Assembly (NCBI GenBank): GCA_973895155.1
Contig: OZ316891.1
Location: 22,959,884 to 23,023,883, forward strand
Length of the DNA: 64,000 bases
Direction: 5' to 3'
Origin: Marsupella aquatica
Taxonomy: Eukaryota > Plantae > Marchantiophyta
Both the position numbers and the translations under genes were made by a program. Below are positions 20,301 to 64,000 of this stretch, piece by piece. Each line of letters starts with the position of its first letter. Position 1 is the stretch's first letter. Under the pieces are notes generated by a model. The model did no database searches. It saw only the letters and a list, made by a program, of their open reading frames with translations, and was not told the origin of the DNA.

Positions 20301-20607
20301 CAAGCCACAGTATTTAAGTGCTTGGCTTCATCAAGTCCAACTCCAATTGGGGCAACCCAGTTTCCAGGGGTAGTACCGGCCAAAGGACAAGCCGAGACAC
20401 TCACCCCGATGCCGGAGGTAAGTGGCAAGGGAAAGGAATCGGCTGTCAAAACAGGGAAGAAGAAGAAGCGGAAACCTTCTGGGTCTGGGAGTTATACAGC
20501 TTCTCAAGCCGTTGTGACCAAGAAGGTAAACATGGCACCAACCTCCGGCATCAACACGGCGGTGGATCCATTGGTCCTAGGAAGTGGGGATGGCAAGGCC
20601 GAGGCCG
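17373..20607 (+). mobile_element. Family A LTR, partial copy with decayed LTR ORF (17485-20607)
   Basis: Collinear with ~20870-24190 and cut at 20607 by a new LTR start. Confidence 0.85.
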
Positions 20608-33377: not shown

Positions 33378-33379
33378 GA

Positions 33380-42722: not shown

Positions 42723-43199
42723 CATATATGCAACTCTATATATATGTTAATCTAACAGTAGACGTTGTTCTACATTCTATATGTGTAGAAGTTAGAGTGG
42801 GTTCAAGGAGCACTTCTTTGGATTGTGCAATATTCTCATCCAATCATATTTCAGTTTACAAGTTTCTATATATCGCGGATCGATGGCACTGGTCGTAATT
42901 GGCTTTTGTGTCGTCTTCAATGGCCAGTTTCTATGTTGAGGCCTGAACCCTAATCTGTCCCATAAACTTCAAATGAATGTCGCCTAGGGAAATTAACGTT
43001 GTGAAGCTCAGCCGCTTCTCGAAAAGCCATCACGGTGACGTACATGGGAGCCATATGATTGTTAGCTTAATCCCTGAACTCGCGGTCGACAGAGCTATGC
43101 ATTTTTCCAGGAGAAAATCAGCATCCAAGTTGTTGATGTAACAAGAGGATGGAAATGAGTCAAAAGCTGAAGTTGGACACGTTGTCGTTTTTTTTTTGG

Positions 43200-43375
43200 G
43201 GATTTTTTTTTGGTCCGCCCATCTCGGCGAGGTCAGCCAAGATTGAATCAACCTCGGGTGCCCAGCTGAGATGAGCGGAAGTTTGAAGGCCCCATCTCAA
43301 CTCCTCAACTGAGATTCTAAAATTTTTGAGATAACTGATATCAGTTATCAGCCACTGATAACTGATGATGTTGTG
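43200..43375. mobile_element. Putative CACTA-like terminus with dyad motifs
   Basis: ATCTCGG-N9-CCAAGAT at 43221 plus two degenerate copies, a perfect 20-bp palindrome GATAACTGATATCAGTTATC at 43330, and the end ...TGTTGTG (CACAACA reversed). Confidence 0.35.
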
Positions 43376-44332: not shown

Positions 44333-44495
44333 GGTTAAATTTCAAAATTGCAACTATCCATGTGAAGAAAACACTTTTTGCAATACCAACATCAGATAAA
44401 TTTATCGCTTCAATTTCAAAATTGCAACTTCCATATGAAGGAAACACTTTTTGCAATACCAACATCAGATAAATTTATGGGTTAAATTTCAAAAC
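44333..44495. repeat. Tandem duplication, ~80-bp unit, just over two copies
   Basis: aatttcaaaattgcaact..ccat.tgaag.aaacactttttgcaataccaacatcagataaatttat is repeated. Confidence 0.85.
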
Positions 44496-47305
44496 TATAT
44501 AATTTTGCTACGATGCACGTGTAAGAATGAAGTTGGAAATCCAAGAAATATACCCTTCTCTGCTATTTTGTCGTTTAGGGCGACGACCAATCAAAAGTGG
44601 CCACGTGGGCCAACCCGTCAATAGACACTATAAAAGGACCACCGCCGATAAGTTTTTGACATCATTGTCCAGAGTAGATTTTTGGGAGTTGTGTTCTTGG
44701 AGCAACATTCTATCCGTTGAGCCATTCGTTTTCCCTGATTGAGGGAATAATGCAAAGCCCCATAGTGTCATGGATAGCCATGTCTCAATCAGACAAAGAT
44801 TCACCTTCAAGTTCAGTTGAATCCTCTCTGTCACACGATTGACATGGGTCTTAACACCAAAAACGTCACTATTGGGTGCCAAAACCATCTCCTTGTACCT
44901 GAGGATCACGAAGGGATACTGTGAAGGCCGATAAACACCAATTTATGCCCTTAACACCAGACTATCATAGCAAGACTCTATCACACATCACCCAAGCTCA
45001 ATCCCTAGGAACCAAGGTTGGGAATCAGATCCTGTGCTCATGATAGTTCTAGTGAGAAGGGGTCTTCATATCGGGCCCGTACACACAGGGCCTAGCGCTA
45101 TGGTGCGCATATGTCTATACGTATGCTTACTATCATAGGTATATTTCTACTCTGCCGCCAGAATGTACCCATAAACCAGTGACTCCTGATTGATTCCCGG
45201 CTTAGGGACTTCTAAGCCATTAATGCCCCACCACTTTGCCATTCCACTCTCAGCAATCAGAGTTGTGACAGTCCTCACCCAACCCACTTCAATGCACCCA
45301 GTACACCTCTAAGTGGTGCTGCTAGTCCCATCATACACTCAGATTGCCTCACACACACACACACATCCATGAGAGAAATGAGGCCTGAGAGGAAAACTCA
45401 ATTAGATTCAAAGATCTGCACAATAGTTCACTTAGAACACTTGATCCAAACAATAGGCCCAAAGGCTGTCTCCTCCAGATTACGACGTTGTCATGCCGAA
45501 AGATTTCAGCTCATGAATGGCTTTTATAGGGGATGATGGGCGAGGCCTCCCGGTTGGGTTGCGTGCATGCTGACTCGGAGGGGCTGCTTGGTTGGATGGA
45601 TTGAGGTTTGGTGATTGGGTGGCTCGTCGTCACCAGGTTTGGGTGAGTCACCAGGCTTGGAGTTTGGATGAGCCTTGCTGATGGCAACTAGCTCAAGCTG
45701 GATGGTTGGGTTTCCGATGCTATTTAAGACTTGAGCCTCGGCTCATTGAGGTTGGCGGTTGTCTATTGAGATCTGTTGAGTTGCATTCTGTGAGTTTTGC
45801 TCCGTTTTGCGAAACTTGACTATTGTGCGGCGGTTTTGGAGTTCAGGGCAAGTGTTGGATCCAGGTGTGGAGTTTTCGATCCAGACGGGGATTTCTCAAG
45901 TTTGGAGTCTCGTTGATCTAGGCAGGGAATTTCTCAAGTTTGGAGTCTCCTTGATCCAGGCGAGGATTTCTTGAGTTTGGAGCCTCGTTGGTCCAGGCTT
46001 GAGTTTCGTGTGAGCTGTTTTAGACTAGTGGAGTAGCTAGTTGAGTTTTGGTTTTGTGAGCTAAGGAGGATAGTTTTTCCATCAGATTTTGAGTAGTTAG
46101 TCACTCGAGGAGTTCTACGCGACAAGTTAGAGGTAGCGGCCCGCCGTAGGGCCAGCTACCAGACTCTTGCGGGCAAGCTTACTCAAGGGCACCTATTGTA
46201 ACCTTTGTGAGAAAAGTAAAAAATATAAAGGAGTGAGAGTTTACTCCAAAAAGTGCTTGTTGCCTATCCCAATTGCAGCCAGAAATGCGTAGTTTGCCCG
46301 AGGAGCCCCTAACTTTAAGTCCTCGCGACATTGGCGACCATACTAGGGAGTCCTTGGGGCGATTGGATGAGATGGGTGACTATGACAAAGTCGGTCGGAT
46401 CTCAAGCATCGTCATGTCGATGACGAGAACCATAAGGAAGGAAGAGCTTGAGTCGGAAAGGGCAAACAGGGAAGCAAATAGAACTACTCGGTCGGGTACT
46501 TGGTGTCTCCAAGAGGTTCTGAAGGAGAATGGGCAGTTTGATGGGAGAAATGTGACAAGCTACCTTAAGTCTTACTTGACAAAAGCAATTGTCTACAAGT
46601 TGGACGAAGGGACGGCCGTGAAAGAGTTCATGGTGCTGGTTGAGAAGGAGTTGAGTTCAACGGTGCGGACCATCGTTGAGTCAGCTGAGGGCTGGGATGA
46701 CTTCGACTAGAAGATGAAAGAGAAGTTCCAAGCGGAGGATGCTGATCGGGTCACGCAGGCTACCTTCTTGGATTGGGTGAATGACAGGAACAATAAGCTG
46801 AAGGGACCGCAAGAGCTCCTAAGGGAGTTCAAGAGAAGGGTGTCTCAGTTACCAAAGCGAGATGTGGGAATCATCGAGTTGCAGCGCTCGACGCTCTTCT
46901 GGAGGGCAGCCGATGAGGACCTTCGAGAGGAGCTTGAGAACGCGATGGAGCTGCTGGAACCTTCGAGAGTTACCTTGTCTAACGACTGGAACCAAGTTGA
47001 GAAAGCGGTGTTGAAAGTGAGCAATCGACACCGGCGACGAAAGCTAGACAAGGAGGCTACCACTCTTGACCTAAGGCCGTCGGAACCGATATTGAGGAAA
47101 GGGAAGCGAGAACCAGCGAAGGATGAGATCAAACCATCGGTGGATGATCTCGCAAAAATGATGCAGAACCTGAAGATCTTGGCGGCACATGCGGTCGAGA
47201 ATCCGAAACCGAGGGTTGCGAGTGCTCCCAAGAGAAAGCGAGAAATGCAGAGTTGGCCATGCATGTGGTGCGATAGCAAGGAGCATGACCAACGGGAGTG
47301 TCTAG

Positions 47306-49984
47306 TGTGATGTCGATGACATGGTCCTTATTCTATAATCTGAGTAACTAGGTTGCTGTATGCAAGGAGTAGCTATTGATACCGTATAAACATTAGCAAG
47401 CTGGCAAGAATAAGGGCAATCATGGCATTAAGAGTAGGGATAAAGGTATTTCAGCTTGAAGACTGCACAACCAAGGCAAACACAGTTGAGGTAGTCATTG
47501 TCAAGGCCACAAAGGAGAAACTGGGGAAGAGAGGAGGAAGCGAGTCTCCATAGGTGAAGCTCTGTGGTATGGTGATTGTTCTCATGATAAAATCTGAATG
47601 TCTTGGGTGTGTAGCTTCATTTTGTTATTTGGGTTAGTGGTTCATAGTCTAGTCTTAGAATGCATGTTAGGGAAATAAAAGCTATGCTACGGGTGGTCGG
47701 TGACCATATCTCTTTCAATACGTCACCAAATCCGGATCTCTAAAGAGCATTGGAAAGATCTGGTCAAGGCGAGTAAAATCGATATAAAACACTTGGGAAA
47801 CGGAGCTGTATTAAGGAAAATATGGCCTGATTAGTGTGACAGGTTAACTTGTGGCCGAAATTAGCGGATTCGGTTGCGGTTTCGGGTTAACCTAAGCTCA
47901 GCCACGGCTTAGCTTATGTGAGCACGACTTTAGCTTAGCTCATGTAAGCATGGCTTCAGCTTAGCTCATGTAAGCACGGCTTCAGCTTAGCTCAGGTCAC
48001 CACAGCTTCAGCTTAGGCTTAACCCGGGTTCGGATTAGATTGATCCTGGGTTAGACTGAACTCGGGTTAGCCTAAACTCGGGCTTGGGTTAGCATAGGTA
48101 AGTTCGGGTTTGGGCTCAACTTAGCCTAGGTTAGCAGATAGCAGGTAGCGGTCTAACCCGAGACCACGGGTTAGCTCTACTCGGGTTAGATAGGATAGCT
48201 AGGTTAGCCAAACTCGGGTTAGCTATGTAACTCAGGTTAGCATAGTAGTGAGTACCCCCTCTCGGTTATGGGGACATAACTTTTTGTGTATTTGACCAAA
48301 TTGGCTATAATTGACCTCGTTGGAAAGAGGAGCTCAAGCCGCTTCCAACGCTGCTATCCACGCAGCAAATGGTTGAATAGAGAAATTGGGAGAGGAGGCG
48401 CAAGCTCGCAAAAACCATGGAGGAGGGCCAAATCCGAAGAACATAGCCAATTCGAGATAGAAATAAAGTTGCGAGTTAGGGTTCATAGTTAGAGATAGTG
48501 GTGGCTCTGTTAGGGCTGGGATGGGGCTCCAGCAGCTTAGTATCCACCCATTTGGGCTCAATATGAGAGTATATAGAGCAGCCCCCAGTAGAGGCAAGGG
48601 GGGGGACTTCAGTTGTGTGATCCCACGTAGACTGAGCAGCAGGGAGGAGCTCTATGCAAGGAAGGTTGGGCTTGGAAGCTGTGTGCTGGGGAGAGCTTGG
48701 TTGTGCTATTACTCAGGGAGTAATCAGCCACGCTTCATAGCAACAGTTGGCCAGGTTTGCAAGCTGGATTGTGGCTCTTTCTAGTAGGCAACACAATTGG
48801 GTTCTTTTCCCCCAATACAGAGCCTTGGTGATAGGTGATGTGTTGGTGATTGTAAACTGTGGGGAGGATTTCAATGTGATTTGCGGTGAGCACATTAGGA
48901 AGGCTGAGACACTAATTGAGGGGCAGCAAGAGGAGCATTTACAGTTGAGTTTGCAAGGCTACGTGATCCATGGGGAGTCCCGGCCTTTGTCTGGTAGAGA
49001 GCACTAAGGGATTTATGGCCAGAGTTGAGCTTGCAGGGCAAGCGTGAGGCCGGGCCTCATTGCAGTCTAGGATAGATCATCGTTAGGCCTGGTACCAACT
49101 TTGAAGTCAAGTCAACTGTGCATGCGTAACTTGACGTTCTAAATTGGAGGTGTGAGATCTGTATGTGCCCCCAAGAATGAAGTGCAGTGAAGGAGGTTGA
49201 GTTTAGGATTGAGTTTGCAAGGCAAGTACGGGATTGGTTAGAGTCCAATCTACCGTCACAATCTAGAGTGAGTCGGGCTCAGGTTCAGGATTGAGCTTGC
49301 ATGGCAAGCATGGGGCTTGCGGGGCAAGCACGTCGCAATCGGGAGGAGACAGCTTTGGGCCTAGTGTTCAGATCAAGTGTTCTCAGTGAACTATTGTGCA
49401 CATATTTGAATCTAATTGAGTTTTCTTCTCAAGCCTCATTTCTCTCATGGATGTGTGTGTGTGTGTGAGGCAATTTGAGTGTATGATGGGACCAGCAGCG
49501 CCACTGAGAGGTGTACCGGGTGCATTGAAGTGGGTTGGGCGAGGGCTGTCATAGCTCTGATTGCTGAGAGTGGAATGGCAGAGTGGTGGGGCAATGGCTT
49601 AGAAGTCCCTAAGCCAAGAATCAGTCAGGAGTCACTGGTTTATGGGTACATTCCAGTGGCAGAATAGAAATATACCTATGATAGTAAGCATGCGTATAGA
49701 CATATGCGCACTGTAGCGCTAGGCCCTGTGTGTATGGGCCCGATATGAAGACCCCTTCTCACCAGAATTATCATGAGCACAGGATCTGATTCCCAACCTT
49801 GGTTCTTAGGGATTGAGCTTGGGTGATGTGTGACGGAGTCTTGCTATGATAGTCTGGTGTTAAGGGCATAAACTGGTGTTTACCAGCCTTCACAACATCC
49901 CTTCATGATCCTCAGGTACAAGGAGATGGTTTTGGCACCCATAGTGACGTTTTTGGTGTTAAGACCCATGTCAATCGCGTGACA
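47306..49984 (+). mobile_element. Family B solo LTR, 2,679 bp (true orientation not established)
   Basis: TGTGATG...CGTGACA termini. Flanks TCTAG/CCTGG are a 5-bp TSD with two transitions. It interrupts gag, which resumes after 49984. Confidence 0.85.
47880..48245. repeat. Short-unit repeats within LTR B (~25-bp CTTAGCTCATGTAAGCACGGCTTCAG-like units and many GGGTTAG words)
   Basis: Visible directly; partly mirrored at 54105-54297. Confidence 0.7.
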
Positions 49985-52900
49985 CCTGGACCTGAGGGAA
50001 GCTACGGATAAAGGGCTGATCAAGTTCATCGATGAAGTTGGTCAGAAAAAGATATCGTTTGCCGATACTGAAGAGCCGATTCCATTCAACTCCAACAAGG
50101 GAGGCATGAAGGCTTTGGCTGAGAAGGGAGCTGGGAAGCGAGTCAAAGAGGCGTCCTCTTCGCACCTGGAAGCGAATGTTTACAATGTGGAGTTGGATGG
50201 CCCCATGACAAAAACGAACAAGTTTTACAAGCGCTTGGCGGATCTGGTGCGAGAGAGATCCGGATGGAGTGACCCGGTGCTGATCAATGCAATAACGGTT
50301 GAGGTTGGGGCTAGTTGGGATGCCTCGGTCGAGTCAAAAAGGAAGAAAACCAACGAGGATGACACTCCGTCTCAATCAGGGGAACGAGAGAGGCGGGATA
50401 CTCGAGACAAGGGAAGAAGGGTTAGGTTCAAAGAAGAGGAAATGAGCGAGAAAGAGCCAGAGAAAGGGAAACCGATCAGGAAGGACCCGGGCTGGGTGCT
50501 TGGCAGGGATGTTGACCAGACCATGTACCTGGAGGTTGTAGCTGAGAAGTTTTGGAGCCAACAGGCTCAAGGGTTTACCAATGCCAAGTTCTTTGGGAGT
50601 ATGAGGCGGGAGATCCAAGAGGAAACGAATTTACAAAGAGGGCCCTCACACCTTGATGGGGGAGGCTGGCAAGATGGAAATTGGGAGTTTCTGAACTTAC
50701 ACTGCTGGGGTGTCCATGGGTTCAGGTAGTAAGCCTGCTGGCCCCAAAGAGTCAGACTTGGGGAAACCAAAGAGGGTCAAGTCCCTTGAAGAGGAGCTCA
50801 TGGACTTGGACGATGAGTTCTGCGATGCGGAAGAGGAGCTCATAGGAGATGGAAGCGAAGCTGAGTCTGTGGCAAACAGGGACCCGACTAAAGGGAAAGA
50901 GCAAGAAGGCATTACTGCGCAATCGAGGATTGTTCATGTCATGGGCTCAATGAAAGGAAATGGTTATGCTTACCAAGATGGATACTGGGCTCAAGCAAGT
51001 CCGGAGAGAGAGTGCCAGTTGGAAGGAATGGAAGGCAAGGTGCGGGCGCTCATTGATATTGGCTCGGAGATCAACTTGATGGATCCAAAGGTGTTTCAAA
51101 AGGGGAATTGGCCGGTGGATAATGAGTTGCTTTGGAGTGTGAACTCGGTGAGTTCAATGAAGGACTATCTTTGGGGCGGATGTCCGAATGTGATGGTGAA
51201 GTTTGGGAATGTCAAGCAGGCTTGTAACATTTTTATTCATGAGCACTTGTCGTTTCTGGTGATACTGGGCATGTCGTTCATCACTAAATGGAGGATGGAG
51301 ACGAAGGTTCTGGATGATACTACCTTCATGGTGAAGGTTTGGAGCAAAGATGGGAAAGAGGTGGTTCAATTTCCGGCTGTTCTACCTGGAAATGAGAGGA
51401 ACCAAAAGCAGCTACGAGATCCAACTGCGGCAGAAGTTGGCATTGCTATGGGGGAGAACCGAGATGCTGAGATGGTTCTAAGAGCAGAGTTCAAAGGGGA
51501 GCCAATTGAGGACCAAAAGATGGGGAGTCTAGTGTTCAAGGAAGAGTGTTACTCAGGAGAGCGACTGAACATTGGGAAGTATCCGAGTGACTTTGGGAAG
51601 CGGCTGAAATGGGATGGTGAAGAGTTCAAAGACATTCGAGTGAATTCTGATAAGTTCATTCTTGGAGATGGCTACCTTTGGCGGAAACCTAAAGGCCCCA
51701 TGCTAGTACCAATGAGAGTTGTCGATTCTAAGGATGAGCATAAGCGGATTTTGGAGAAAGTCTATGATGCTGAGGTTGAAGGTGGTTTGAAAGGAATAAG
51801 GGCAAAGGTCTGTGAGCGAATCTAAAAGGAGTATTGGTGGCCAGATTTGTATTGGGATGTTCAGGAGTATGTTGATAATCGAGGGATCCATCACAACTTG
51901 AAGAGGCAGATTCAAGAGCTTGATCGGATTGACTATCGAGTCAATGACATACGGGAAAGAGTGAAGGTTTGCAAGATGCGAACCAGAGATAAAATTCACT
52001 CAAGTTCCGACTTGAGTGAATTTGAAGACGAGGCATTGGTCCAGGCGCATCCATTGGACTTGAGTTTCAAAAGTGGTTTGACTGGTTCTGATTCGAATGA
52101 GTTGGACTTCAAGTTTCTGGAAAGTGGAGTGCCTAAGGCTGACTCTGAAGGCTTTGGGTTTGAGTTTCTTGAGGAAGTGATCCAGGCACATGGCTCAAGT
52201 TTGGACTCAGACTTAGGGGATATCTGATGGATTGGAGCAGACCGGAGGCCGCTCAGGTTTACTGGGGAGGATGTCATGCCAAAAGATTTTGGCTCAGGAA
52301 TGGCTTTTATAGGGGATGATGGGCGAGGCCTCCCGGTTGGGTTGCGTGCATGCTAACTCGGAGGGGCTGCTTGGTTGGATGGATTGAGGTTTGGTGATTG
52401 GGTGGCTTGTCGTCACCAGGTTTGGTGTTTGGGTGAGTCACCAGGCTTGGAGTTTGGATGAGGCTCGCTGATGGCAGCTGGCTCAGGCTGGATGGTTGGG
52501 TTTCCGATGCTACTTAAGACTTCGCTGAGCGGAACTCGACTATTGTGCGGCGGTTTTGGAGTTCAGGGCAAGTGTTGGATCCAGGTGTGGAGTTTTCGAT
52601 CTAGGCGGGAATTTCTCAAGTTTGGAGTCTCCTTGATCCAGGCGAGGATTTCTCGAGTTTGGAGCCTCGTTGGTCCAAGCCCGAGTTCTGTGTGAGCTGT
52701 TTTAGACTAGTGGAGTAGCTAGTCAAGTTTTGGTTTTGTGAGCTAAGGAGGATAGTTTTTCCGTTAGATTTTGAGTAGTTAGTCACTCGAGGAGTTCTAC
52801 TCGACAAGTTAGAGGTAGCGGCCTGCCGTAGGACCAACTACCAGACTCTTGCGGGCAAGCTTACTCAAGGGCACCTATTGTAACCTTTGTGAGAAAAGTA

Positions 52901-54606
52901 AAAAATATAAAGGAGTGAGAGTTTGCTCCAAAAAGTGCTTGTCGCCTGTCCCAATCGCAGCCAGAAACGCGCAGTTTTCCAGAGGAGCCCCTAACTTTAA
53001 GTCCTCGTGACAACGTGCTTGCCTTGCAAACCTCGTGCTTGCCATGCAAGCTCAATCCTAAACCTGAGCCCGGCTCACTCCAGATTGCGACGGCAGATTG
53101 GACTCGAACCAATCCCATACTTGCCTTGCAAACTCAATCCTGAACTCAACCTCCTTCACTGCACTTCATTCTTGGGGGCACGCACAGATCTCACACCTCT
53201 ATTTCAGAATGTCAAGTTACGCATGCACAGTTGACTCGACTTCAAAGCTAGTACCAGGCCAAATGGCAATCTACCCCAGACTATAATGAGGCCCAGGCTC
53301 ATGCTTGCCCTACAAGCTCAGCTCTGGCCATAAATCCCTTAGTGCTCTCTACCAGACAAAGGCCGGGACTCCCCATGGATCACGTAGCCTTGCCAGACTG
53401 AATTGTAAATGCTCCTCCTGCTGCCCCTCAATTAGTGTCTCAGCCTTCCTAATGTGCTCACCGCAAATTGAATTGAAATCCTCCCCACAGTTTACAATCA
53501 CCAACACTTCACCTATCACCAAGGCTCTATATCGGGGGAAAAGAACCCAGTTGTGTTGCCTACTAGAAAGAGCCACAATCTAGCTTGCAAACCTGGCCAA
53601 CTGTTGCTGTGAAGCGTGGCTGATTGCTCCCTGAGTAATAGCACAACCAAGCTCTCCCCAACACACAGCTTCCAAGCCCAGCCTTCCTTGCACAGAGCTC
53701 CTCCCTGCTGCTCAGTCTATGTGAGATCACACAACTGAAGTCCCCCCCCCCCTTTGCCTCTATCGGGGGCTGCTCTATATACTCTCATACTGAGCCCAAA
53801 TGGGTGGATACAACGTTGCTGGAGCCCCATCCCAGCCCTAACAGAGCCGCTACTATCTCTAACTACTGAACCCTAACTCGCAACTTTATTTCTATCTCGA
53901 ATTGGCTATGTACTTCGGATTTGGCCCTCCTCCATGGTTTTTGCGAGCTTGCGCCTCCTCTCTCAATTTCTCTATTCAACCATTTGCTGTGTGGATAGCA
54001 GCGTTGGAAGCGGCTTGAGCTCCTCTTTCCAACGAGGTCAATTATAGCCAATGTGGGCCAATACAAAGAAAATTATGCCCCCGCAACCGAGAGGGGGTAC
54101 TCATTGCTATGCTAACCCGAGTTACATAGCTAACCCAAGTTTGGCTAACCTAGCTATCCTATCTAACCCGAGTAGAGCTAACCCGTGGTCTCGGGTTAGG
54201 CCGCTACCTGCTATCTGCTAACCTAGGCTTAGCTGAGCCCAAACCCAAGCTTATCTATGCTAACCCGTGCCCAAGTTTAGGCTAACCCGAGTTCAGTTTA
54301 CCCGACAAATTTGAGAGTTTTCCTTTTTCTCTCTTGTACATAGCGAGGCACTATTTCTTCATGATAGGTATCAGTAGCGTAGCACGGAAGGGTTAACTTC
54401 TCCGGCGAGAAATATGCCGAAGCTTCCTCCCACGCGAGCTTGACAAGCCGTCTGTCCTGGCTGTCCCATTCCGTTGTAGCTGACTCGATAGTCCTGTCGG
54501 GAACTGCTACTAAGTTATACTTAAATTCAATCAAATAATGTATTGCGCCCAAAATAGACGTAAACAAGAAGGCATCTGTCGGGGAAGGTAGTCGACATGG
54601 ATCGAT

Positions 54607-55490
54607 GGATCTCGGAGAGGCCAGCCGAGATCACTCTTCTTGAGACGGATCTCGTAGAGGCCAGCCGAGATGACTATTCCTGAGACGGATCTCAGAGAGG
54701 CCAGCCAAGATTGACTATTCCTGAGACAGATCTTGGAGACGCCAGCCGAGATGACTCTTTGGTACATGGATCTCGGAGAGGCTAGCCGAGATGACTCTTC
54801 GGTACACGGATCTCGGAGAGGCCAGCCGAGATCACTCTTCCTGAGACGGATCTCGTAGAGGCCAGCCGAGATGACTATTCCTGAGACGGATCTCAGAGAG
54901 GCCAGCCGAGATTGACTATTCCTGAGACAGATCTTGGAGACGCCAGCCGAGATGACTCTTCGGTACACGGATCTCAGAGAGGCTAGCCGAGATGACTGTT
55001 CCTGAGACGGATCTCAAAGAGGCCAGCCAAGATTGACTCTTCCTAAGACGGATCTTGGAGAGGCCAGCCAAGATCACTCTTCCTGAGATGGATCTCGGAG
55101 AGGCCAGCCAAGATGACTATTCCCGAGACGGATCTCAGAGAGGCCAGCCGAGATGACTATTCCTGAGACGGATCTCAGAGAGGCCAGCCGAGATTGACTC
55201 TTCCTAAGACGGATCTTGGAGAGGCCAGCCGAGATCACTCTTCCTGAGATGGATCTCGGAGAGGCCAACCGAGATGACTATTCCGGAGACGGATCTCAGA
55301 GAGGCCAGCCGAGATTGACTCTTCCTACAACGGATCTTGGATAGGCCAGCCAAGATCACTCTTCCTGAGATGGATCTCGGAGAGGCCAGCCGAGATGACT
55401 ATTCCTGAGACGGATCTCAAAGAGGCCAGCCGAGATTAACTCTTCCTGAGACGGATCTTGGAGAGGCCAGCCGAGATCACTCTTCCTGAG
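54607..55490. repeat. Intronic tandem array, 22 x 40-41 bp, one dyad motif per unit
   Basis: Unit GGATCTCGGAGAGGCCAGCCGAGAT(C/G)ACTCTTCCTGAGAC, with a 121-bp trimer higher-order period in the distal part. Confidence 0.95.
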
Positions 55491-57377
55491 TTGCATGTAG
55501 AGGAATGAATCTTGGCAAGGTCCACCAACATGCATCTCAAGTTAGGACTTGCCCTCGCTTGTAGAGGAGGCCAGACACTATGAATGTCAGCGAGGTCAGC
55601 CGACATGCATACATATCGGCGATGCCGCTGACTTGTATCCCTCTATTGTCAACCATTGCGACGAGCAAGCAAATATGAAATGAACAACGTCAAACGCCAG
55701 AAAACTTACATGTCGTTGGGAGTACTACCGGCTTTTTCTTCTTGCGCTTTTCTGGATTGGCTTTTGAACAGACCACCTCTTCCTCCTCCGGGGAGATCAC
55801 TCCAACCAGTTGTGCCAGTTGGTCTTGCGCACAAGTTCCGAAGTGAGGATAGGATTCAGTCCCAAACACCATCCGCCCACAATTTTCACCCGCCTTGAAT
55901 ATTGCCCCAAACTGTGCGTTGAAAGTGAGGATAGTTGCCCTAGGGTGTGTTGTATATTCGATGATACATTGGAGCGTTGCTGGCGACAATGTGCCCGCAA
56001 AAGGATCGTTAACCTGATTCTTCTTGGATGTATAGTTCGTTAGCCCATTCCTACTCTTCATATCGAGCTCTGCACTAATTGGTGCCACAACGTCCTTTGG
56101 GCATATCTCCACAATAGATTGAAACCCCCACAGGTCTAGCTTGAGATATTCGCTCTGGATCGGCCAAACATATTCAGAGGTCAGACTTCCTCAGTTTAGG
56201 ATAGTAAGTCATTGGAATAAAAAATAAATGAAGAAGTAGGTAATTGATGGGACTTACTCGCTTCCCAGTCCTACCATCGTAGGTGGGTGTGTCGTTCCAG
56301 ATAAAGAAGCTTTCTTTCAACCCCCAGTTGGTATTCTCGTAAACTAATGCATCATAAATGCAAGTTGAGTGCCGAAGCGAACCACTGTGCATGATGGCAA
56401 ACAGTCCTTCGGAATCAAGGACATCTCGAGCAAACTCCTGAACCCGGTTCAAGTCGTCCTCCTGGAACAAATTCCACAACGGGGTGGACTTACCCTCGAC
56501 CATACGCGTGTCTGTTCCCATATGTATCAGAATTAAATCTGCACCAGTCTTCACTCGCTTCCCCCCTTTTCTCCAGGCATTTTGACGCAAACCTTCCCGC
56601 AATAGCTTTCTGCACCATGAGATCAATTTACTAACTACAGGGGGTTCGGTACCTTCTTTAGCCGCATCAAAAAAAGTTGTAAATAGATTTGGAGACCACC
56701 TAAAATACATATGTCTGCTCTGGGAAGACATGGTATTGGCATAAGGACGCCTTACTCCTTTCAGCTCTGTGTTATCCTCTTCTCCAAGGGCCTCTTCATC
56801 CTCCTCATTTTCCAATGTGGGGTCAGGTTGGATGGTTGTGGGCGGAACCTCTCCAGTGCCGGGCGGGGGAGGCGACTCAGTGGGGGAAGGAAGAGGAGGA
56901 AATTCCTTGTCACGTGCTTTGCTTGGGCTCCCTTTGGGAGCTCTGGGTCGCCTAGTTTGCTTTCTTTTTAAGGCCTTTTCCTTTTGCCATGACAGTAATG
57001 GTGGCCGGTAAGGCACAGGAGAGATATCAGACAAGCGCCCTTTGTCTCCGGATTGTCCTTTGTCCTCTTCCTCTCGCTCCTCTTCCTCTTGCTCACCCAC
57101 ATCATCCTCACCTTGCTGCTCGTCAGCCAATTCATCTTGTACTTCAGGAGCCTCATGCGGAGGCAAGTCAAATTCTTGCAGTGGAGCCTCGTCTGGACCC
57201 AACTCAACTATTGGTTGTTTATCCTTGTGCCCTGGACCCTGCGAAACCCCTGGACCGTCCTCAACTGCTGCCTTTGTAGCCGGCTCTACACCCTTGCTCT
57301 TGATAGAATCAGGTTCCGTTTGGATCTCTGCATGACCTGCATAGGATGCAAATTGATGAGCTTCATGATGGCAACTG

Positions 57378-57555
57378 CATCTCGGCGAGCCTCGCCAAGA
57401 TCGGGTTCATTATATGCAAGCAACTTATTACTCAACTAATACTTCATCTCGGCGAGCCTCGCCGACATCTGGACTGGACCAGACACTTAATCTCGGAGAG
57501 CCTCGCCGACATCTGGACTGGACCAGACACTTAATCTCGGCGAGGCTCGCCAACC
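57378..57555. repeat. Four dyad motifs and a ~44-bp duplication inside intron 57337-57613
   Basis: ATCTCGG-CGAGCCTCG-CC(G/A)A(G/C)AT repeated. Confidence 0.8.
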
Positions 57556-60500
57556 CAGCCAAGGTTTTTTCCAATGCAAGCCACCACCTGATTCGAAAGG
57601 AATTGAGTAATACCTGATGGGGTCTTTGTTGGAGTGCTTATAGAATCTGACTGACTGGCCTTGGCGGATTGTTCCTTGTCGACCTTCTTCTCGCCTCCTT
57701 CCTTTCAGGCCTTTTTCCCATTATAGGCTGGGTCCATTGGGATTATGGCCTCCAACGCTATTGCCTAGGGCATAGAGTCCGTCAATTGTCGCAGCTTGGA
57801 TATATCGTAGTAATTTGTAGGCTCCTGTTGGTCCTTCAGCTTCATTGCACACTCCTTCTCAGCGTCATCGATAAAAGTATTCCAGTCACGGTATTCCATA
57901 TACCATGCGCAGTTTTGACGTTCCCAATCGTAGACTACTCTGCCATTAGGAATTTGGCCATCACATGGATACATGCTAAGGCTCCCTTTCGGCTCCATCC
58001 AAGATGTGAGTGCCCATGGCAGCTCTTTCAATACGGATGCATTCATGTTCTCCTGATTGATTAGAAATCTTGTCACGCACCTCTTTGTTCGCTTTTTCCA
58101 CAATTCTTTTAACAAGACCGTGGCCTTTCCGTCAATCCAAATTTCCCCGCCTAGTTTCAGTGATTTCTCTTGCACATAAGCTCGATAAAGCCTTCTGTAT
58201 AGCTCTGCAAATTCCTCCTCTGTCCCAAAAACTCACGGTACATCTGTCTTTGGTAGGCCTTTGCAGCAAAATCGGTCAAAATCACACAACCAACGTGGTC
58301 AATGTAACACCACATTGACCAGACCGCTAACCAGGATCTAATTGCAGCATCACCATTGCTACGTGGATGGTGATACATACTCTTCTCCTCCTCCATTCCA
58401 AAATGAGCTTTCAATAGCTTTACTCTGCACTCTGCAGTTACCCAAGCCCCAGCAAACAAGCGGACCCTATCCAAGCCAACCTGTACATTCATCACACCCT
58501 GCTTGGCGTCCTTTGACAACTTGTGATACAGCTGCCGACATACCGGCATGAACTGGTCTCCATTGGCCGGATTCATGCAGGCCGCAAGCTTGGGGAACTT
58601 GTTGTCCCAGGCCTTGCATGCAACAATAATCATTGCCTCCGTCTCCTCCTCAGTTCTCTTCACACTCCACGGGTGCCCACGAGCTGCGTCTTGTGCCATC
58701 TCCTTGGAGATATTGATTCATCCCGCTTCAATGTTTGACCAAGACATGATGTACACAGCGGCTTCTTTTGTCATATTCTTCGAGTACCAAGTCTTCCCAT
58801 GTCCTCGATTTCGGGCCTTCATGAAAGCCTCCATTGTCTCCTTTGACATGAGCGAACTGTACTCCTCCAATGGAGTGTTCAATAGCTTTGCAACCCGATC
58901 AGCGTCATTAAACCAGGACGTCTTTACGACAGTCGCACTTATCCTAAAAATGACAAACAATACTCATAGCGGCAATTTCAGAGAGGCTCTCCAAGATGGC
59001 ACACAAGGTTTACACAAACGGGTAATCACATTTTGCAAAAAGACGCGAATGAGAGTACTTACGAGTTGAGAGCGTGCATTGCTTGCTCAACCTTCTTGAA
59101 TCTGTCCTTCCCAGCGTTCAAAAGAGAGAATCTGATGCACGGATGGTATTGCAATTGATCCGAATACTCAGAAGCAACTGCGGACCAGGCTGTGTATCTG
59201 TGGTTTCCATCAAAAACCCAAAACATTTTGTCCTTAAGGACTTTGAACTCCTCTGATGCATCGCACTCTTGCTCAAACTGTTCATTGAGCTGAGTCCATA
59301 GAGGGTCCCAAAATGGCTTGAAGTCTGTCACTGTCTGCGTTTCTCCAATTTCATTGAACTCAGTAATGTGGAACTCGCTGAGCTTCACAACATAGCCGCT
59401 CTCTTTGAATCCTTTTTTTAATTTTGCAACTGACTCATCCTGAAGATTCCTCACTGCCTTCATTGGCATGAGCCGGCACAAGGGGATCTGGGGCGGATCC
59501 TTACTAAAATTTGTCTCATACTTGGAGACAATAGACTCCCAGGCTCCCTTCTCAGCAATATCAGCCAATTCTACCGCTCCAATAGGCTCAAATGATATCT
59601 GCTTTGGCTCAAACTTCCTCCTAGAGTCAATTGACTCCATAAGTGGACCACCCTGTGAGCGCGTCAGTCAAGACGTGACTGGCTAAGGAGACTTGGATCG
59701 TGGTTTCTTACTCCGTTGAGAAGTTTGGTTGTCGGCAAGTCCAGCTCCAGTCGAGTCTTTCCTCTTCAGCATTTTGACCTTAGATTACATGAGAAATGAA
59801 AGAGTTATTACTCGGCAATAGCTCGACCTATAAACCTGACAAGATCTCAGCGAGCCTCGCCGAGGGAGCCAGTTTTCAAGGATATGCGGGGTCCAGCCTA
59901 TCACACATTTGATTCATCTACAAATGGATTTTACATATCAAGAAAAAGGGGGAGCCAAGAGAAAAACCTGAGAGAATCACCAACGTTCACGGCAAATCAC
60001 TGTCGCAAATGCTCACAAGAAAATGTTGCCTAAACGCTCACGGAGAAGCTACCACACGCTCACTGCCTCAAAACACCAACGCAATCCAGTAGACACGATA
60101 ACAGGGTTGCACAGGAGAGTTTACCGTGAGTGGGACGACTGAAGAAGAGCAGGAACAATGCAGATGTGAGCGCGGAGAAGTGAGAGATTGCACAAGACCA
60201 ATATGCAAAGATTGAGGAAGAGCGCGGATTAGAGCGCGAACGAGTAAGGGACGCAAAAGAGTGAGGCAGAGTGAGAAGGTCCCAGGATTAGTGATAAAGA
60301 CGAGCGCCAAACCTAAGGTGTCACACCGTGGAAGAGTGATGAGGAAGGAACGACATCCACTTCAAGGAATAACGTACCGCACGTACTGCACAACACTAAA
60401 GTACGCAATAGATACGGGAGATCCTAACTATATTTCGATACGTACATGTTAACGGCCCAAACAAGAAAGTACACAATGCTAACGCGAGTACTGACCACCA

Positions 60501-60790
60501 CTAGTACGAGAGAGTTTAGGGTACATTTAGGGTACAATTAGGGACTTTGGCCTACAACTCAAATGAGTCCAAATGTAGGAGACCCTTGCTGTCATTTCAT
60601 TCCGAGGCCTACTAAGACGTGTCAACATCTCAGTGCGTCAGCTCAAAGAGGAAATGGTTGCCCACATGCATTATCATTTGGGTGGCTTAACTAAAAGAGG
60701 AAATTGGGGTTAAGAGAAGGGGGAAGAGCACAAGTCAACAAGATCAAGGAGGGTTTGTTGGAGGAGACTTAATAAAGGCGGCCAATTATG

Positions 60791-60819
60791 TTTAGGGTTT
60801 AGGGGTTTAGGGTTTAGGG
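60791..60819 (+). repeat. Four TTTAGGG telomere-like (telo-box) units
   Basis: TTTAGGGTTTAGGGGTTTAGGGTTTAGGG. Confidence 0.8.
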
Positions 60820-60886
60820 TAAAATAGGCAAAGTAGAAAAAAGTCCAACACTCTAGTGAACTTCACGGTAGAAAAGTACGCTTCTT

Positions 60887-61905
60887 GGGTCAAAAAGGTC
60901 GCCAGCCTCTCGGAGACCCTCTCTGAGATGGAGTCGTGGGCCAGATGACACCACTTGTGGACCCTGTTAACAGTTTCAAAGGGTTAGCTACAACATACAC
61001 TGTGTCTCTTAGAGACCCTCTCCGAGATGAAATTAAGGGTATTCCGTTTCAAAGGAAGGACCCAAAATGGTTCTATCCAACATCCGATGTCAGAGACCCT
61101 CTCTGAGATGGAGTGGTGTGGCCCGAACGGCCAGACGACAAAAATTGTCAATCGTGTCTTGGGTGGAAAGGGAAGTGAGATTGCAACCCAATCGCTCGGA
61201 GACCCTCTCTGAGATGGAGCCGTGTGCCCCAAGTGGCCAGAGAGCAATTCTCCCAGATTGCATATTGGGTCAGAAAGGTCGCCAAATGAGACCCAGCCTC
61301 TCGGAGACCCTCTCTAAGATGGAGTCATGGGCGTACTTTGGCCAGATGACACCACTTGTGGACCCTGTTAACAGTTTCAAAGGGTTAGCTACAACATACA
61401 CTGTGTCTCTCAGAGACCCTCTCCGAGATGAAATTAAGGGTATTCCATTTCAAAGGGAGGACCCAAAATGGTTCTATCCAACATCCGATGTCAGAGACCC
61501 TCTCTGAGATGGAGTGGTGTGGCCCGAACGGCCAGACGACAAAAATTGTCAATCGCGTCTTGGGTGGAAAGGGAAGCAAGATTGCAACCCAATCGCTCGG
61601 AGACCCTCTCTGAGATGGAGCCGTGTGCCCCAAGTGGCCAAAGAGTAGTTCTCCCAGATCGCATATTGGGTCAGAAAGGTCACCAAATGAGACCCAGCCT
61701 CTTGGAGACCCTCTCTGAGATGGAGTCGTGGGCGTACTTTGGCCAGATGACACCACTTGTGGACCCTGTTAACAGTTTCAAAGGGTTAGCTACAACATAC
61801 ACTGTGTCTCTCAGAGACCCTCTCTGAGATGAAATTAAGGGTATTCCGTTTCAAATGAAGGACCCAAATTGGTTCTATCCCACATTCGATGTCAGACCCT
61901 CGCCA
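60887..61905. repeat. Tandem array, 401-bp unit x ~2.5, four dyad motifs per unit
   Basis: GCCAGATGACACCACTTG at 60940, 61341 and 61742. CTCGG-AGACCCTCT-CTGAGATG recurs within each unit. Confidence 0.92.
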
Positions 61906-62109
61906 AAATACAAGGATGAACCCAAAAGTGCATGCAAAAACTGACCGTACAGTACTTTTCAATGTTTTTACAATGTAATTTTGTATGGATCGCATGTCCG
62001 TACAAATCTACCATCTCAGAGAGGCTCGCCGAGTACAAATACTGTTGCCCAAATGACTCGAGTCCATCTCAGAGACCCCCACCGAGAATAATTTAGGGTG
62101 GAAACTAAA

Positions 62110-63087
62110 TGTCAAAGACCCTCGTCGAGTAGGATTCTAGGTAAAAGTAAATGACACTCAGCGACCGAGGAAGTCCCTAATCCACCACAGAGAGGCTCGC
62201 CAGATAGCACGACCGCATGTCAGAGACCCTCGCCAAGTAGGATTCTAGATAAAAGTCTATGAGAATCCATCTCAGAATCTCGGAGACCCCCGCCGAGAAT
62301 GACTTGGGATGAAAAGTAAATGACACTCAACGACCAAGGAAGTCCCTAATCCACCACAAAGAGGCTTGCCAGATAGCGCGACCGCATGTCAGACACCCTC
62401 GCTGAGTAGGATTCTAGGTAAAAGTCTATGAGAATCCATCTTAGAATCTCGGAGACCCCCGCCGAGAATGACTTGCGATGAAAAGTAAATGACACTCAGC
62501 GACCAAGGAAGTCCCTAATCCACCACAGAGAGGCTCGCTAGATAGCGCGACCGCATGTCAGACACCCTCGCCGAGTAGGATTCTAGATAAAAGTCTATGA
62601 GAATCCATCTCAGAATCTTGGAGACCCCCGCCGAGAATGACTTGGGATGAAAAGTAAATGACACTCAGCGACCAAGGAAGTCCCTAATCCACCACAGAGA
62701 GGCTTGCCAGATAGCGCGACCGCATGTCAGAGACCCTCGCCGAGTAGGATTCTAGATAAAAGTCTATGAGAATCCATCTCAGAATCTCGGAGACCCCCGC
62801 CGAGAATGACTTGGGATGAAAAGTAAATGACACTCAACGACCAAGGAAGTCCCTAATCCACCACAAAGAGGCTTGCCAGATAGCGCGACCGCATGTCAGA
62901 CACCCTCGCCGAGTAGGATTCTAGGTAAAAGTCTATGAGAATCCATCTTAGAATCTCAGAGATCCCCGTCGAGAATGACTTGGGATGAAAAGTAAATGAC
63001 ACTCAGCGACCAAGGAAGTCCCTAATCCACCACAAAGAGGCTCGCCAGATAGCGCGACCGCATGTCAGAGACCCTCGCCGAGTAGGA
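62110..63087. repeat. Tandem array, 169-bp unit x ~5.8, two to three dyad-like motifs per unit
   Basis: AAGTCCCTAATCC at 62171, 62340, 62509, 62678, 62847 and 63016. Motifs CTCGG-AGACCCCCG-CCGAG and GTCAG-AGACCCTCG-CCGAG. Confidence 0.95.
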
Positions 63088-63553
63088 AGTCGGAAGGCTA
63101 TTTATTCATCCTTCAAGTCAGGCATATTTGCAGAGGGGATTATAAGCCACACGACGGAAGAAGAAGAAATGTTTTAGGCAAGGCCGGACGGAATCTTGGA
63201 GAATATACTACATCCCCAGAGTTTGCATGTACCTCTTGGCGGCTGCTGGCAAATATGTACCTTGTACATGTGCAGAATCTGTACCTTCTTGGCGGCCGCT
63301 AGGAAATAGGTACCTTCTTTGTGGTACAATTGTTATATGTACGCTCCGGATTCTACGATCGTTATATGGTACGCACGTTGTCCGGAACGGTATTCTTGGC
63401 GTAAAGTACGGGTACTTTAACGTCTGATGTACCGCCCAAGTTCTAAGCCTGAAAGTGCGGTATTATTGGCATAAAGTGGTACCAAGACTTTAACGTCTGA
63501 TGTATAAAGCCGAAGGCCTGGGGACTAACATTCCCAGTGTGGATTTGGGACAC

Positions 63554-64000
63554 ATGGCTTCTCTTGTGATAATCCAATCAGTAACCGGGGATGTTGTTGT
63601 TTTTTGTCAGATTGAGGGAGACAGTGTTCGAGTCACTAAGGAGCATGAAGTAGCAAGCCGATTTGGTTTGAAGGTAGGGGATTTCATGATTTACGAGGAG
63701 AGAGAAGATGGGCTGTCCACTTTTGCTGAATCCAAAGGCGATGGAGATGAGCGAGAGTGGTATCTGAAATGTGGCATGTCCTATACTATCTGCAAAAAGA
63801 AAGCAAGTTCATGCAATGTTAGTGAGGGTCTTGGAGATTTTGCGCACTCCCCACAGGTTGATGAACCGGGTGAATTATGGAACAATACACCGTGTCAAAA
63901 ATTGTCCCAATTTTGGGAGGACATTCACCGAGTTGGTAGACCCCACTCAAATTTGTCGCGAGTGTGGCAGGATGTTGGAAAGGCAGATGAGCCAGTGAAG
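63554..64000 (+). CDS. Start of an unidentified ORF divergent from the ParB-MTase gene; open to the window end
   Basis: ATG at 63554, MASLVIIQSVTGDVVVFCQIEGDSVRVTKEHEVASRFGL..., 149 codons without a stop. Absent from the ORF track, presumably because its stop lies outside the window. Confidence 0.5.
   Translation, partial: MASLVIIQSVTGDVVVFCQIEGDSVRVTKEHEVASRFGLKVGDFMIYEEREDGLSTFAESKGDGDEREWYLKCGMSYTICKKKASSCNVSEGLGDFAHSPQVDEPGELWNNTPCQKLSQFWEDIHRVGRPHSNLSRVWQDVGKADEPVK

What the first reader, a model, noticed from the sequence alone, without database searches (positions are those of the whole stretch)
54607..63087. Three unrelated tandem arrays (40, 401, 169 bp) share only a dyad with fixed 9-bp spacing
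The spacers differ (AGAGGCCAG, CGAGCCTCG, AGACCCTCT, AGACCCCCG) and unit backbones look unrelated, yet half-sites and spacer length are constant. This pattern is expected from selection for a dimeric protein's binding site rather than neutral satellite growth. Variants are mostly C>T/G>A at the CG/CCG (CTCAG, CTTGG, CCAAG, CTGAG), consistent with methylation-driven decay of the sites.
Basis: seen in the sequence. Interest (0 to 1): 0.75.

Follow-up and report, generated by a model that had tools for sequence, protein, structure and literature searches.

The report
Transposon's own ParB-like binding-site arrays
Four otherwise unrelated tandem repeats in and beside a decayed plant gene carry the same 23-base palindrome, which two distant relatives of the gene keep in the same intron; it is likely the landing site of the gene's own predicted ParB-like, methyltransferase-like protein, probably a device by which a transposon protects itself from silencing.

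Summary
The three arrays exist, a fourth (44 bp) lies between them, and their backbones do not align. The shared element is a 23-bp palindrome, ATSTCRGMGA-SSS-TCKCYGASAT (10-bp arms, G/C centre); six of the nine 'spacer' bases are constrained. All 53 sites avoid exons. They sit in the introns and upstream region of a five-exon, minus-strand pseudogene (about 1255 codons) encoding a ParB/Srx-fold domain and a beta-class N4/N6 DNA-methyltransferase-like domain with degenerate catalytic motifs. Homologues occur in liverworts and ferns. One site flanks a CACTA transposase 11 kb away, across a truncated retrotransposon nest, so the link to CACTA is likely, not shown. Two metagenome relatives fetched by protein alone (55-58% identity, synonymous sites near saturation) keep the same palindrome in the same intron, whose flanks do not align. 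The arms vary independently, which favours protein binding over a hairpin. C>T decay is element-wide. Most likely these are cognate sites of a transposon accessory protein, amplified VANDAL/VANC-style. The protein class is described in algal transposons; my searches found no land-plant case and no defined site. Binding and function are untested.

The parts
54607..55490 (.). 40/41-bp tandem array, 22 units with one 23-bp site each, inside the last predicted intron (55709-54510) of the accessory gene
57379..57556 (.). four sites in predicted intron 2 (57613-57337), three of them in a 44-bp mini-array (57441-57551)
58975..58997 (.). single site in intron 1 (59062-58944); relatives L001 and L002 carry the motif in the same intron
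55584..55606 (.). single site in the last intron, outside the 40-bp array
59844..59866 (.). single site about 70 bp upstream of the predicted start codon
60907..61896 (.). 401-bp array (x2.4) with four sites per unit, 10 in all, upstream of the gene
62013..63087 (.). two single sites, then the 169-bp array (x5.6) with 11 scored sites and one degenerate site per unit
59063..59772 (-). exon 1: ParB/Sulfiredoxin-fold domain (DGNHRxxA); two premature stops near the 5' end
57614..58943 (-). exon 2: conserved region of unassigned fold (candidate DNA-binding part); three premature stops and one frameshift in this copy
56258..57336 (-). exon 3: acidic low-complexity linker and first half of the beta-class MTase-like domain (HMGT at the motif IV position)
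55710..56154 (-). exon 4: second half of the MTase-like domain (TFNAQFG at the motif I position)
54308..54509 (-). predicted exon 5 (C-terminal tail, SPExxxLPxYA-like), cut by a retrotransposon LTR piece; weakly supported
   Evidence: best of 1275 frames but E 1.7; alignment to P0156 runs on to residue 1233; one search found no pairwise match
40573..42750 (+). degraded CACTA/EnSpm transposase (Transposase_21 and DUF4218), convergent with the accessory gene; same element likely, not shown
   Evidence: E 1.9e-37 and 2.5e-26
43221..43243 (.). single site 3' of the transposase exons, with two degenerate copies at about 43255-43320
44829..54307 (.). nest of LTR-retrotransposon pieces separating transposase and accessory gene; no site, and no matching target duplication at its two ends
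63494..64000 (+). open frame running off the window, divergent from the accessory gene across the 401- and 169-bp arrays; unassigned

Best explanation
The arrays are separate tandem amplifications of one 23-bp palindrome that lies in the introns and upstream region of a decayed, multi-copy plant gene, and this palindrome is likely the binding site of that gene's own predicted ParB-like/methyltransferase-like protein, likely the accessory factor of a CACTA-type DNA transposon. Shown: the motif, its exclusion from exons, its conservation in the same intron of diverged relatives, the domain content of the protein, and the element-wide C>T decay of this copy. Inferred: a dimer recognises the two 10-bp arms; dense site clusters single out the element's own copies; tandem duplication is a fast way to gain sites, so unrelated stretches that contain a site get amplified; the bound protein counters host CG/CHG silencing, as VANC and TnpA do. 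In this lineage the methyltransferase fold more likely acts as a non-catalytic DNA/chromatin-binding module than as an enzyme. This copy is dead, and its sites are decaying with the rest of the element.
For: 53 sites at 14 bits or more: 28 in introns, 24 upstream, 1 beside the transposase, 0 in 3766 exon bp, 0 in 1-43200 (profile built from these window sites). Independent test: of 3 metagenome loci fetched by the ParB protein alone, 2 carry the motif in intron 1 (L001 29.5 and 30.3 bits, L002 24.4 bits; 0 of 1000 shuffles each). Masked introns do not align (p 0.72-0.83), and 17 of 24, 19 of 27 and 19 of 24 four-fold sites differ. Arms are no more symmetric than randomly re-paired arms (129 of 180 against 126.5 +/- 3.8). 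ParB fold: model pLDDT 88; the top 8 VIA rows are all ParB/Srx-family folds (KorB Z 7.3, rmsd 2.5, 90 aligned); Foldseek best hit ParB 6sdk E 0.007. G145, R148 and N192 are kept in 136 of 143, 118 of 142 and 85 of 85 aligned rows. MTase fold: the Riccia homologue model matches M1.HpyAVI, CcrM, RsrI and PvuII at E 1e-8 to 1e-10, and the Riccia profile hits window exon 3 at E 7e-13. Multi-copy: 14 of 14 and 26 of 26 hits are Riccia sorocarpa proteins on 8 different scaffolds; contigs of four runs lie on the gene at every identity class from 99+ to under 90%. Precedent: a ParB + N4/N6-MTase gene opposite the transposase in Ectocarpus Sola1-1_Ec32 (PMC12477816); inverted-repeat arrays beside ParB-type PAG3 in Bostrychia (10.1101/2025.02.11.637652); VANC target motifs in intronic tandem repeats (PMC5735166).
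Against: No binding or methylation data. The binder is assigned by co-location and family precedent only; another element-encoded protein would fit the DNA evidence equally. No helix-turn-helix was detected: the profile of the full protein found nothing in PDB and the middle region was not folded. The ParB match is moderate (Z 7.3 is below the tool's caution level of 8; no Foldseek hit at E 0.001). L003 (35% identity) has no site, though only about 60 nt of its intron are held. The motif is unchanged across three diverged elements, whereas VANC targets diversify fast. The link to the CACTA transposase rests on one site and on orientation: the retrotransposon nest has no matching target duplication, no CACTA/G terminus was found in 40251-40600, and none of 194 fetched proteins is fused to the transposase. 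Only 3 related loci, all about 1.2 kb. The MTase model has pLDDT 58 and is of a Riccia protein, not the window's.
Confidence: 0.6

Rival explanations
1. The palindrome is bound by another element-encoded protein (CACTA transposase, a TnpA-like regulator, or the product of the ORF at 63494), and the ParB-MTase gene only shares the element.
For: Spm TnpA binds clustered motifs and activates its own elements (10.64898/2026.08.24.746577, section 4). One site lies beside the transposase, and 23 sites lie between the accessory gene and the unassigned ORF.
Against: TnpA sites in that paper are at the termini and the motif given (CCVTCGCAAA) is not palindromic. Here the sites are internal, 28 of 53 are in introns of the ParB gene, and they are conserved in its intron 1 in relatives. 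ParB-family proteins such as KorB bind palindromes (PMC11790492).
Confidence: 0.18
2. The ParB-MTase protein binds the sites but as an auto-repressor or self-marking enzyme (4mC/6mA writer) that limits or labels its element, rather than countering host silencing.
For: KorB, the best structural match, is a long-range repressor (PMC11790492). Sites surround the gene's own start and introns. Riccia homologues keep Asp and Pro at motif IV and DFAGGWG at motif I, and one Adiantum protein has DVPF.
Against: The window protein has HMGT and TFNAQFG at these motifs, changes that C>T decay cannot produce. 0 of 36 motif IV matches listed read (D/S/N)PP(Y/F/W). Repeated amplification of sites is easier to explain if binding favours the element.
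Confidence: 0.12
3. The palindrome is a site for a host transcription or chromatin factor that the transposon exploits.
For: Stability of the motif across elements with near-saturated synonymous sites fits a slowly evolving host protein.
Against: About 27 bits of information is far more than a typical plant factor site (established knowledge). No site occurs in 1-43200 or in the retrotransposon nest.
Confidence: 0.06
4. The motif is a structural hairpin/cruciform, or a neutral seed that favours tandem duplication, with no bound protein.
For: Several sites fold as hairpins (down to -13 kcal/mol); quasi-palindromes can promote slippage (established knowledge).
Against: Primary sequence is conserved while pairing is not: arms differ at 51 of 180 positions, only 8 departures are shared, symmetry equals random re-pairing, and one site keeps 4 of 10 pairs. 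Single unamplified sites are conserved in relatives. No Rfam match in 40000-64000.
Confidence: 0.04

Closest known systems
Ectocarpus Sola1-1_Ec32 accessory gene (ParB-like + N4/N6 DNA methyltransferase; PMC12477816, passages read)
   Same: Same two-domain architecture and similar length (1104 aa against about 1255). Opposite strand to a transposase. Same proposed role of binding and modifying its own element.
   Different: Brown alga and Sola element; here a seed-free land plant and a probable CACTA element. The passages read give no binding site or arrays. The MTase motifs here are degenerate. Sequence homology to the Ectocarpus protein was not tested.
Bostrychia Plavaka PAG3 and its arrays (bioRxiv 10.1101/2025.02.11.637652, section 8 and passages read)
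   Same: EnSpm/CACTA-superfamily element with a ParB-domain accessory gene and adjacent tandem arrays of inverted repeats, proposed as its binding sites.
   Different: PAG3 carries a 2OG-oxygenase; the MTase is on a separate gene (PAG2, with SET). Red alga. No motif sequence or conservation test in the text read; its supplements were not seen and may hold one.
Arabidopsis VANDAL/VANC (PMC5735166, passages read)
   Same: A TE-encoded factor's target motif accumulates by tandem-repeat formation in introns and intergenic regions of the element.
   Different: 8-9-bp non-palindromic motifs that diverge between families, with binding and hypomethylation shown. Here a 23-bp dyad stable across diverged elements, a ParB/MTase-fold protein, and no experiment.
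Spm TnpA (bioRxiv 10.64898/2026.08.24.746577, abstract and section 4 read)
   Same: CACTA accessory regulator needing dense motif clusters.
   Different: Transposase-derived protein binding a non-palindromic motif at the termini.
Bacterial ParB-parS and RK2 KorB-OB (PMC11790492, passages read)
   Same: ParB N-terminal fold with GxxRxxA and a conserved Asn at the domain end (model 48-193 aligns to KorB 52-147, so N192 likely equals N146). Palindromic site in many copies.
   Different: Eukaryotic and intron-containing, longer site, fused MTase-like domain, no ParA partner seen. HTH, CTP use and clamp formation not shown.
Marchantia DN4MT1 and rotifer N4CMT
   Same: Beta-class N4/N6 MTase fold in a eukaryote; the rotifer structure 8s9m matches at E 3.6e-8. 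DN4MT1 is in a liverwort (10.1101/2021.02.12.428880, passages read).
   Different: Those are active host enzymes. This is a multi-copy TE-type gene with ParB and degenerate motifs. No direct comparison with DN4MT1 was run.

Membership tests
ParB + N4/N6-MTase transposon accessory proteins (Ectocarpus Sola1-1 type) | N-terminal ParB-like domain | tested here: met
   consistent but moderate (KorB Z 7.3, rmsd 2.5, 90 aligned)
ParB + N4/N6-MTase transposon accessory proteins (Ectocarpus Sola1-1 type) | C-terminal N4/N6 DNA-methyltransferase domain in the same chain | tested here: met
   full-length Riccia P0153 carries both domains and aligns to both ends of the window model
ParB + N4/N6-MTase transposon accessory proteins (Ectocarpus Sola1-1 type) | carried inside a DNA transposon, opposite to the transposase | tested here: inconclusive
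   multi-copy; convergent CACTA transposase 11 kb away with one site, but separated by a truncated LTR nest
ParB + N4/N6-MTase transposon accessory proteins (Ectocarpus Sola1-1 type) | sequence homology to the algal proteins | not tested
   the algal sequences were not fetched
active beta-class N4C/N6A DNA methyltransferase | catalytic motif IV (D/S/N)PP(Y/F/W) (motif recalled) | tested here: not met
   HMGT in the window; D[LM][PS][ST] in Riccia, DFP[IT] or DVPF in three other homologues; 0 of 36 matches canonical
active beta-class N4C/N6A DNA methyltransferase | SAM-binding motif I FxGxG (motif recalled) | tested here: not met
   TFNAQFG in the window; DFAGGWG in most Riccia homologues, so SAM binding may persist there
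active beta-class N4C/N6A DNA methyltransferase | permuted beta-class fold, motif IV before motif I | tested here: met
   (Riccia homologue model, pLDDT 58)
ParB CTPase clamp (ParABS/KorB) | GxxRxxA box and conserved Asn closing the N-terminal domain | tested here: met
   G145 136 of 143, R148 118 of 142, A151 93 of 137, N192 85 of 85; equivalence to KorB N146 inferred from the range
ParB CTPase clamp (ParABS/KorB) | central helix-turn-helix DNA-binding domain | tested here: inconclusive
   no Pfam or PDB sequence hit; region not folded
ParB CTPase clamp (ParABS/KorB) | site-stimulated CTP binding, clamp closure and sliding | not testable with these tools
   needs biochemistry
CACTA/EnSpm transposon | Tnp2 transposase (Transposase_21 + DUF4218) | tested here: met
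   for 40573-42750; its belonging to the same element is inferred
CACTA/EnSpm transposon | CACTA/G terminal inverted repeats with 3-bp target duplication (recalled) | tested here: inconclusive
   no CACT[AG] in 40251-40600; the left end abuts another repeat and the right end lies outside the window
Plavaka PAG3 cassette | tandem arrays of inverted repeats next to a ParB-domain gene | tested here: met
Plavaka PAG3 cassette | 2OG-oxygenase as second domain | tested here: not met
   the second domain is MTase-like
VANDAL/VANC | target motifs amplified in tandem repeats in non-coding parts, introns included | tested here: met
VANDAL/VANC | short non-palindromic motif of the YAGTATTAY type | tested here: not met
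   23-bp dyad
VANDAL/VANC | protein-induced hypomethylation of cognate copies | not testable with these tools
   needs a methylome with and without the protein

The most novel reading that the evidence does not exclude
Liverwort and fern transposons carry a bacterial-style ParB-parS device: a CTP-gated clamp loads at these 23-bp palindrome arrays and slides over the whole element, carrying a methyltransferase fold (dead here, perhaps active in some relatives) that shields or re-marks its own copies against CG/CHG silencing. That would be a nuclear sliding-clamp anti-silencing system in land plants.
Probability: 0.2. Interest if true: 0.88.

Novelty: new variant of a known kind. Interest (0 to 1): 0.63.

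Why it matters
Two 2025 algal papers propose that ParB-domain accessory proteins bind and modify their own transposons; the Bostrychia paper names VANDAL/VANC as the only proven self-binding, self-modifying case. This locus supplies what that hypothesis needs for a test: a defined 23-bp candidate site, evolutionary evidence that it is under selection, and a land-plant lineage (homologues in Riccia, Calypogeia, Adiantum) close to the tractable liverwort Marchantia. If the ParB domain works as a CTP clamp, it would explain how a short site can control kilobases of transposon chromatin. It would also give a long, specific site-protein pair for epigenome tools.

Tried and rejected
Whole-genome scan: no genome held, so genome-wide spacer length and site distribution are open. 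Sequencing runs: 7 listed, no RNA holder listed; laid contigs show no joint matching the predicted introns, so splicing is predicted only. Word-index search with exon 1 among longer proteins: 0 of 236 candidates passed, although HMMER found 224 relatives. Viral contigs: no relative of the protein among 41 pattern matches; the exact motif gave 5 loci with one exact match each and at most one weaker site, not followed further and taken as chance. Pfam on the window's own exons: no significant family. PDB sequence searches with exon 3, the ParB alignment, P0154 and the full-length alignment: nothing significant. Homodimer prediction of Riccia P0024 residues 130-520: no verdict (score 0.00, fold uncertain, alignment not used). 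Rfam: 0 matches in 40000-64000. ORF 63494-64000: no hit in Pfam, PHROGs, NCBIfam or the Atlas. Pairwise test of exon 5 against P0156: no match. Earlier scan notes: nothing in 4 look-ups. Rejected: common ancestry of the array backbones (only faint internal similarity among linkers of the 401-bp unit); the degenerate third site of the 169-bp unit was mis-registered and dropped from the profile; the last lines had a frame error and are replaced. Literature searches found no land-plant report of this gene or motif; the library lacks most subscription papers, Iyer et al. 2011 was seen only as a reference, and no supplements were read.


Full report
Observation. Tandem Repeats Finder gives the three arrays at the stated places (54607-55490, period 40, 22 copies; 60939-61896, period 401, 2.4 copies; 62143-63087, period 169, 5.6 copies) and a fourth at 57441-57551 (period 44, 2.5 copies). 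CTYRG-N9-CYRAG occurs 36 times in the window against 1.57 +/- 1.48 in 100 dinucleotide shuffles, 34 of them inside the finding. With a profile of only the outer seven bases, 39 half-site pairs lie 9 bp apart and at most 4 at any other spacing from 0 to 20. With the motif masked, linkers do not align for any of six array pairs (p 0.27-0.95). No genome is held, so these counts are for the window only.

The motif. Taking one site from each of 15 distinct contexts, the element is a 23-bp palindrome, ATSTCRGMGA-SSS-TCKCYGASAT, of about 27 bits. The inner three bases of each arm are constrained (0.7-1.4 bits), so only the central triplet is a spacer, and it is G/C in 52 of 54 bases. The 401-bp unit holds four sites and the 169-bp unit two plus a degenerate third. 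The profile finds 53 sites at 14 bits or more: none in 1-43200 (best 5.3), none in the retrotransposon nest, 52 in 54308-63100 (null mean 0.015) and one at 43221. This count is partly circular, because the profile comes from these sites.

The gene. Between the arrays lies a minus-strand gene with five predicted exons (59772-59063, 58943-57614, 57336-56258, 56154-55710, 54509-54308), GT-AG introns, about 1255 codons, five stops and one frameshift. Contigs of four runs (two organism labels, two studies) lack three of these stops and mostly lack the frameshift; the other two stops are not among the 40 of 366 rows shown. These contigs cover the gene at all identity classes from 99+ to under 90%. 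HMMER finds 224 relatives of exon 1. Of 20 representatives looked up, the 10 with a species name are Riccia sorocarpa (6), Adiantum (3) and Calypogeia fissa (1); the Calypogeia protein is the closest named one at 56%. MTase-region searches returned 14 of 14 and 26 of 26 Riccia proteins on eight scaffolds. The host is therefore likely a liverwort, and the gene behaves as a transposon gene. Exon 5 is weakly supported (best of 1275 frames but E 1.7; no pairwise match; the alignment to P0156 runs into it). If it is right, the 40-bp array lies in the last intron. No site falls in 3766 exon bp; 28 are in introns and 24 upstream.

Domains. Exon 1 folds confidently (pLDDT 88). Foldseek ranks ParB, Srx, Noc and KorB first but with no hit at E 0.001. 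VIA gives KorB Z 7.3 (rmsd 2.5, 90 aligned), and its top eight rows are all ParB/Srx-family folds; the Atlas agrees at 0.94. The GNHRxxA box and a terminal Asn are conserved (G145 136 of 143, R148 118 of 142, N192 85 of 85). In KorB, R117 is needed for CTP binding and N146 for hydrolysis and clamp closure (PMC11790492, passages). The aligned range ends at model 193 and KorB 147, so N192 likely equals N146 (inference). The C-terminal domain is a beta-class N4/N6 MTase fold: Pfam PF01555 at E 5e-5, below cut-off, in P0153; the alignment profile hits CcrM at E 0.012; the Riccia model (pLDDT 58) matches M1.HpyAVI, CcrM, RsrI and PvuII at E 1e-8 to 1e-10. The Riccia-only profile finds window exon 3 at E 7e-13 and exon 4 weakly at E 0.21. 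The catalytic motif reads HMGT in the window and D[LM][PS][ST] in Riccia; none of 36 matches is canonical, and one Adiantum protein has DVPF. Motif I is TFNAQFG in the window and mostly DFAGGWG in Riccia (canonical motifs recalled). A dead enzyme is the likelier state here. No HTH was detected.

Independent test of selection. A metagenome scan with the ParB alignment returned three short loci. L001 and L002 (55% and 58% identical over the compared exon part; 70-79% of four-fold sites differ across the three pairs) have intron 1 at the same codon, and it carries the same palindrome: two sites in L001 (29.5, 30.3 bits) and one in L002 (24.4), with 0 of 1000 shuffles reaching these scores. The masked introns do not align (p 0.72-0.83). 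L003 (35%) has no site, but only about 60 nt of its intron are held. Across 18 contexts the arms differ at 51 of 180 positions, and symmetry equals random re-pairing (129 against 126.5 +/- 3.8). Sequence, not pairing, is conserved, as expected of a protein site.

Decay. In the 40-bp array, deamination-type changes affect 26 of 132 CG, 9 of 154 CHG and 3 of 242 CHH positions, in motif and linker alike; copies are not independent. Across the gene, 26 of 32 window-specific C>T/G>A differences among the 40 best-supported rows are at CG or CHG, against 31% of cytosines. This is the pattern of a silenced plant transposon (established knowledge), not of the sites in particular.

Element context. A degraded CACTA transposase (Transposase_21 E 1.9e-37, DUF4218 E 2.5e-26) lies at 40573-42750 on the plus strand, with a site at 43221. 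Between it and the gene is a nest of LTR pieces (44829-54307) whose ends share no target duplication and whose right part cuts exon 5 (my reading of the sequence). No terminus was found. One element is likely but not shown, and no read-based or genome-based test of the link is in hand.

Mechanism. Most likely (0.6) the ParB-MTase-like protein binds the palindrome as a dimer, dense clusters mark the element's own copies, and tandem duplication has repeatedly amplified whatever stretch held a site, which explains unrelated backbones with one motif. The benefit is probably resistance to CG/CHG silencing. Binding, dimerisation, CTP use and the effect on methylation are all inferred. Rivals: another element-encoded binder (0.18), auto-repression or self-marking (0.12), a host factor (0.06), hairpin or neutral (0.04).

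Comparison. Ectocarpus Sola1-1_Ec32 carries a 1104-aa ParB + N4/N6-MTase gene opposite its transposase, proposed to bind and modify its own element (PMC12477816; passages and parts of the reference list). Bostrychia Plavaka elements have inverted-repeat arrays beside the ParB + 2OG-oxygenase gene PAG3 (10.1101/2025.02.11.637652; section 8 and passages; supplements not seen). VANC targets accumulate through tandem repeats in introns (PMC5735166; passages), and TnpA needs motif clusters at Spm termini (10.64898/2026.08.24.746577; abstract and section 4). Iyer et al. trace some eukaryotic N6-MTases to phage ParB-terminase loci (PMC4738411; passages). So the locus works like VANDAL/VANC and PAG3 and fits the algal ParB-MTase accessory class by architecture. 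It is not a VANDAL, not PAG3, and fails the motif test for an active MTase. Nine literature searches found no land-plant report and no defined site.

Verdict. A real, selected feature and a new variant of a known kind: it extends the class to land plants and gives a testable site. Interest 0.63.

Noticed in passing
window 43255-43320, 61886-61912, and about 62183 (repeated in each 169-bp unit): Degenerate sites with altered spacing: one about 1 bp shorter near the transposase, one 2 bp shorter at the end of the 401-bp array, and a third site per 169-bp unit with a 1-bp deletion in one arm.
   Followed up: partly
window 63494-64000 (+): Open frame of at least 169 codons running off the window, divergent from the ParB-MTase gene, with no family hit; may be a further accessory gene. 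A weak site (13 bits) lies in it at 63816.
   Followed up: partly
window 60790-60820 and 60515-60543: Short runs of TTTAGGG-like (plant telomere-type, recalled) repeats between the gene start and the 401-bp array.
   Followed up: no
window 44829-54307: Nested LTR pieces: an element with LTRs at about 45490-46331 and 52272-53013 inserted in another LTR, and a reversed 2.7-kb LTR-like insertion (about 47307-49984) in its gag.
   Followed up: partly
window 17400-24500 (+) and 31400-40300 (-): Blocks of about 3.5 kb with long unassigned coiled-coil ORFs, repeated in tandem on each side and inverted across a retroelement pol region (zf-CCHC and RVT_1 at 26901-30040), 80-90% alike.
   Followed up: no
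window 9577-12723 (-): LINE-type reverse transcriptase with zf-RVT.
   Followed up: no
window 44330-44494: 73-bp tandem duplication without the palindrome, in the unassigned stretch between the transposase and the LTR nest.
   Followed up: no
P0055 (Adiantum capillus-veneris homologue): Annotated with a C-terminal NIF phosphatase domain (Pfam E 2.4e-12); a real fusion or a gene-model merge.
   Followed up: no
Atlas hits for exon 1: Clusters with DUF3723 (31% of members, mostly Ascomycota) score 0.94, hinting at related ParB-type proteins in fungi.
   Followed up: no
L002 420-610 and L003 about 750: In-frame TAG stops in the relatives' ParB exon, so these copies are decayed too.
   Followed up: no
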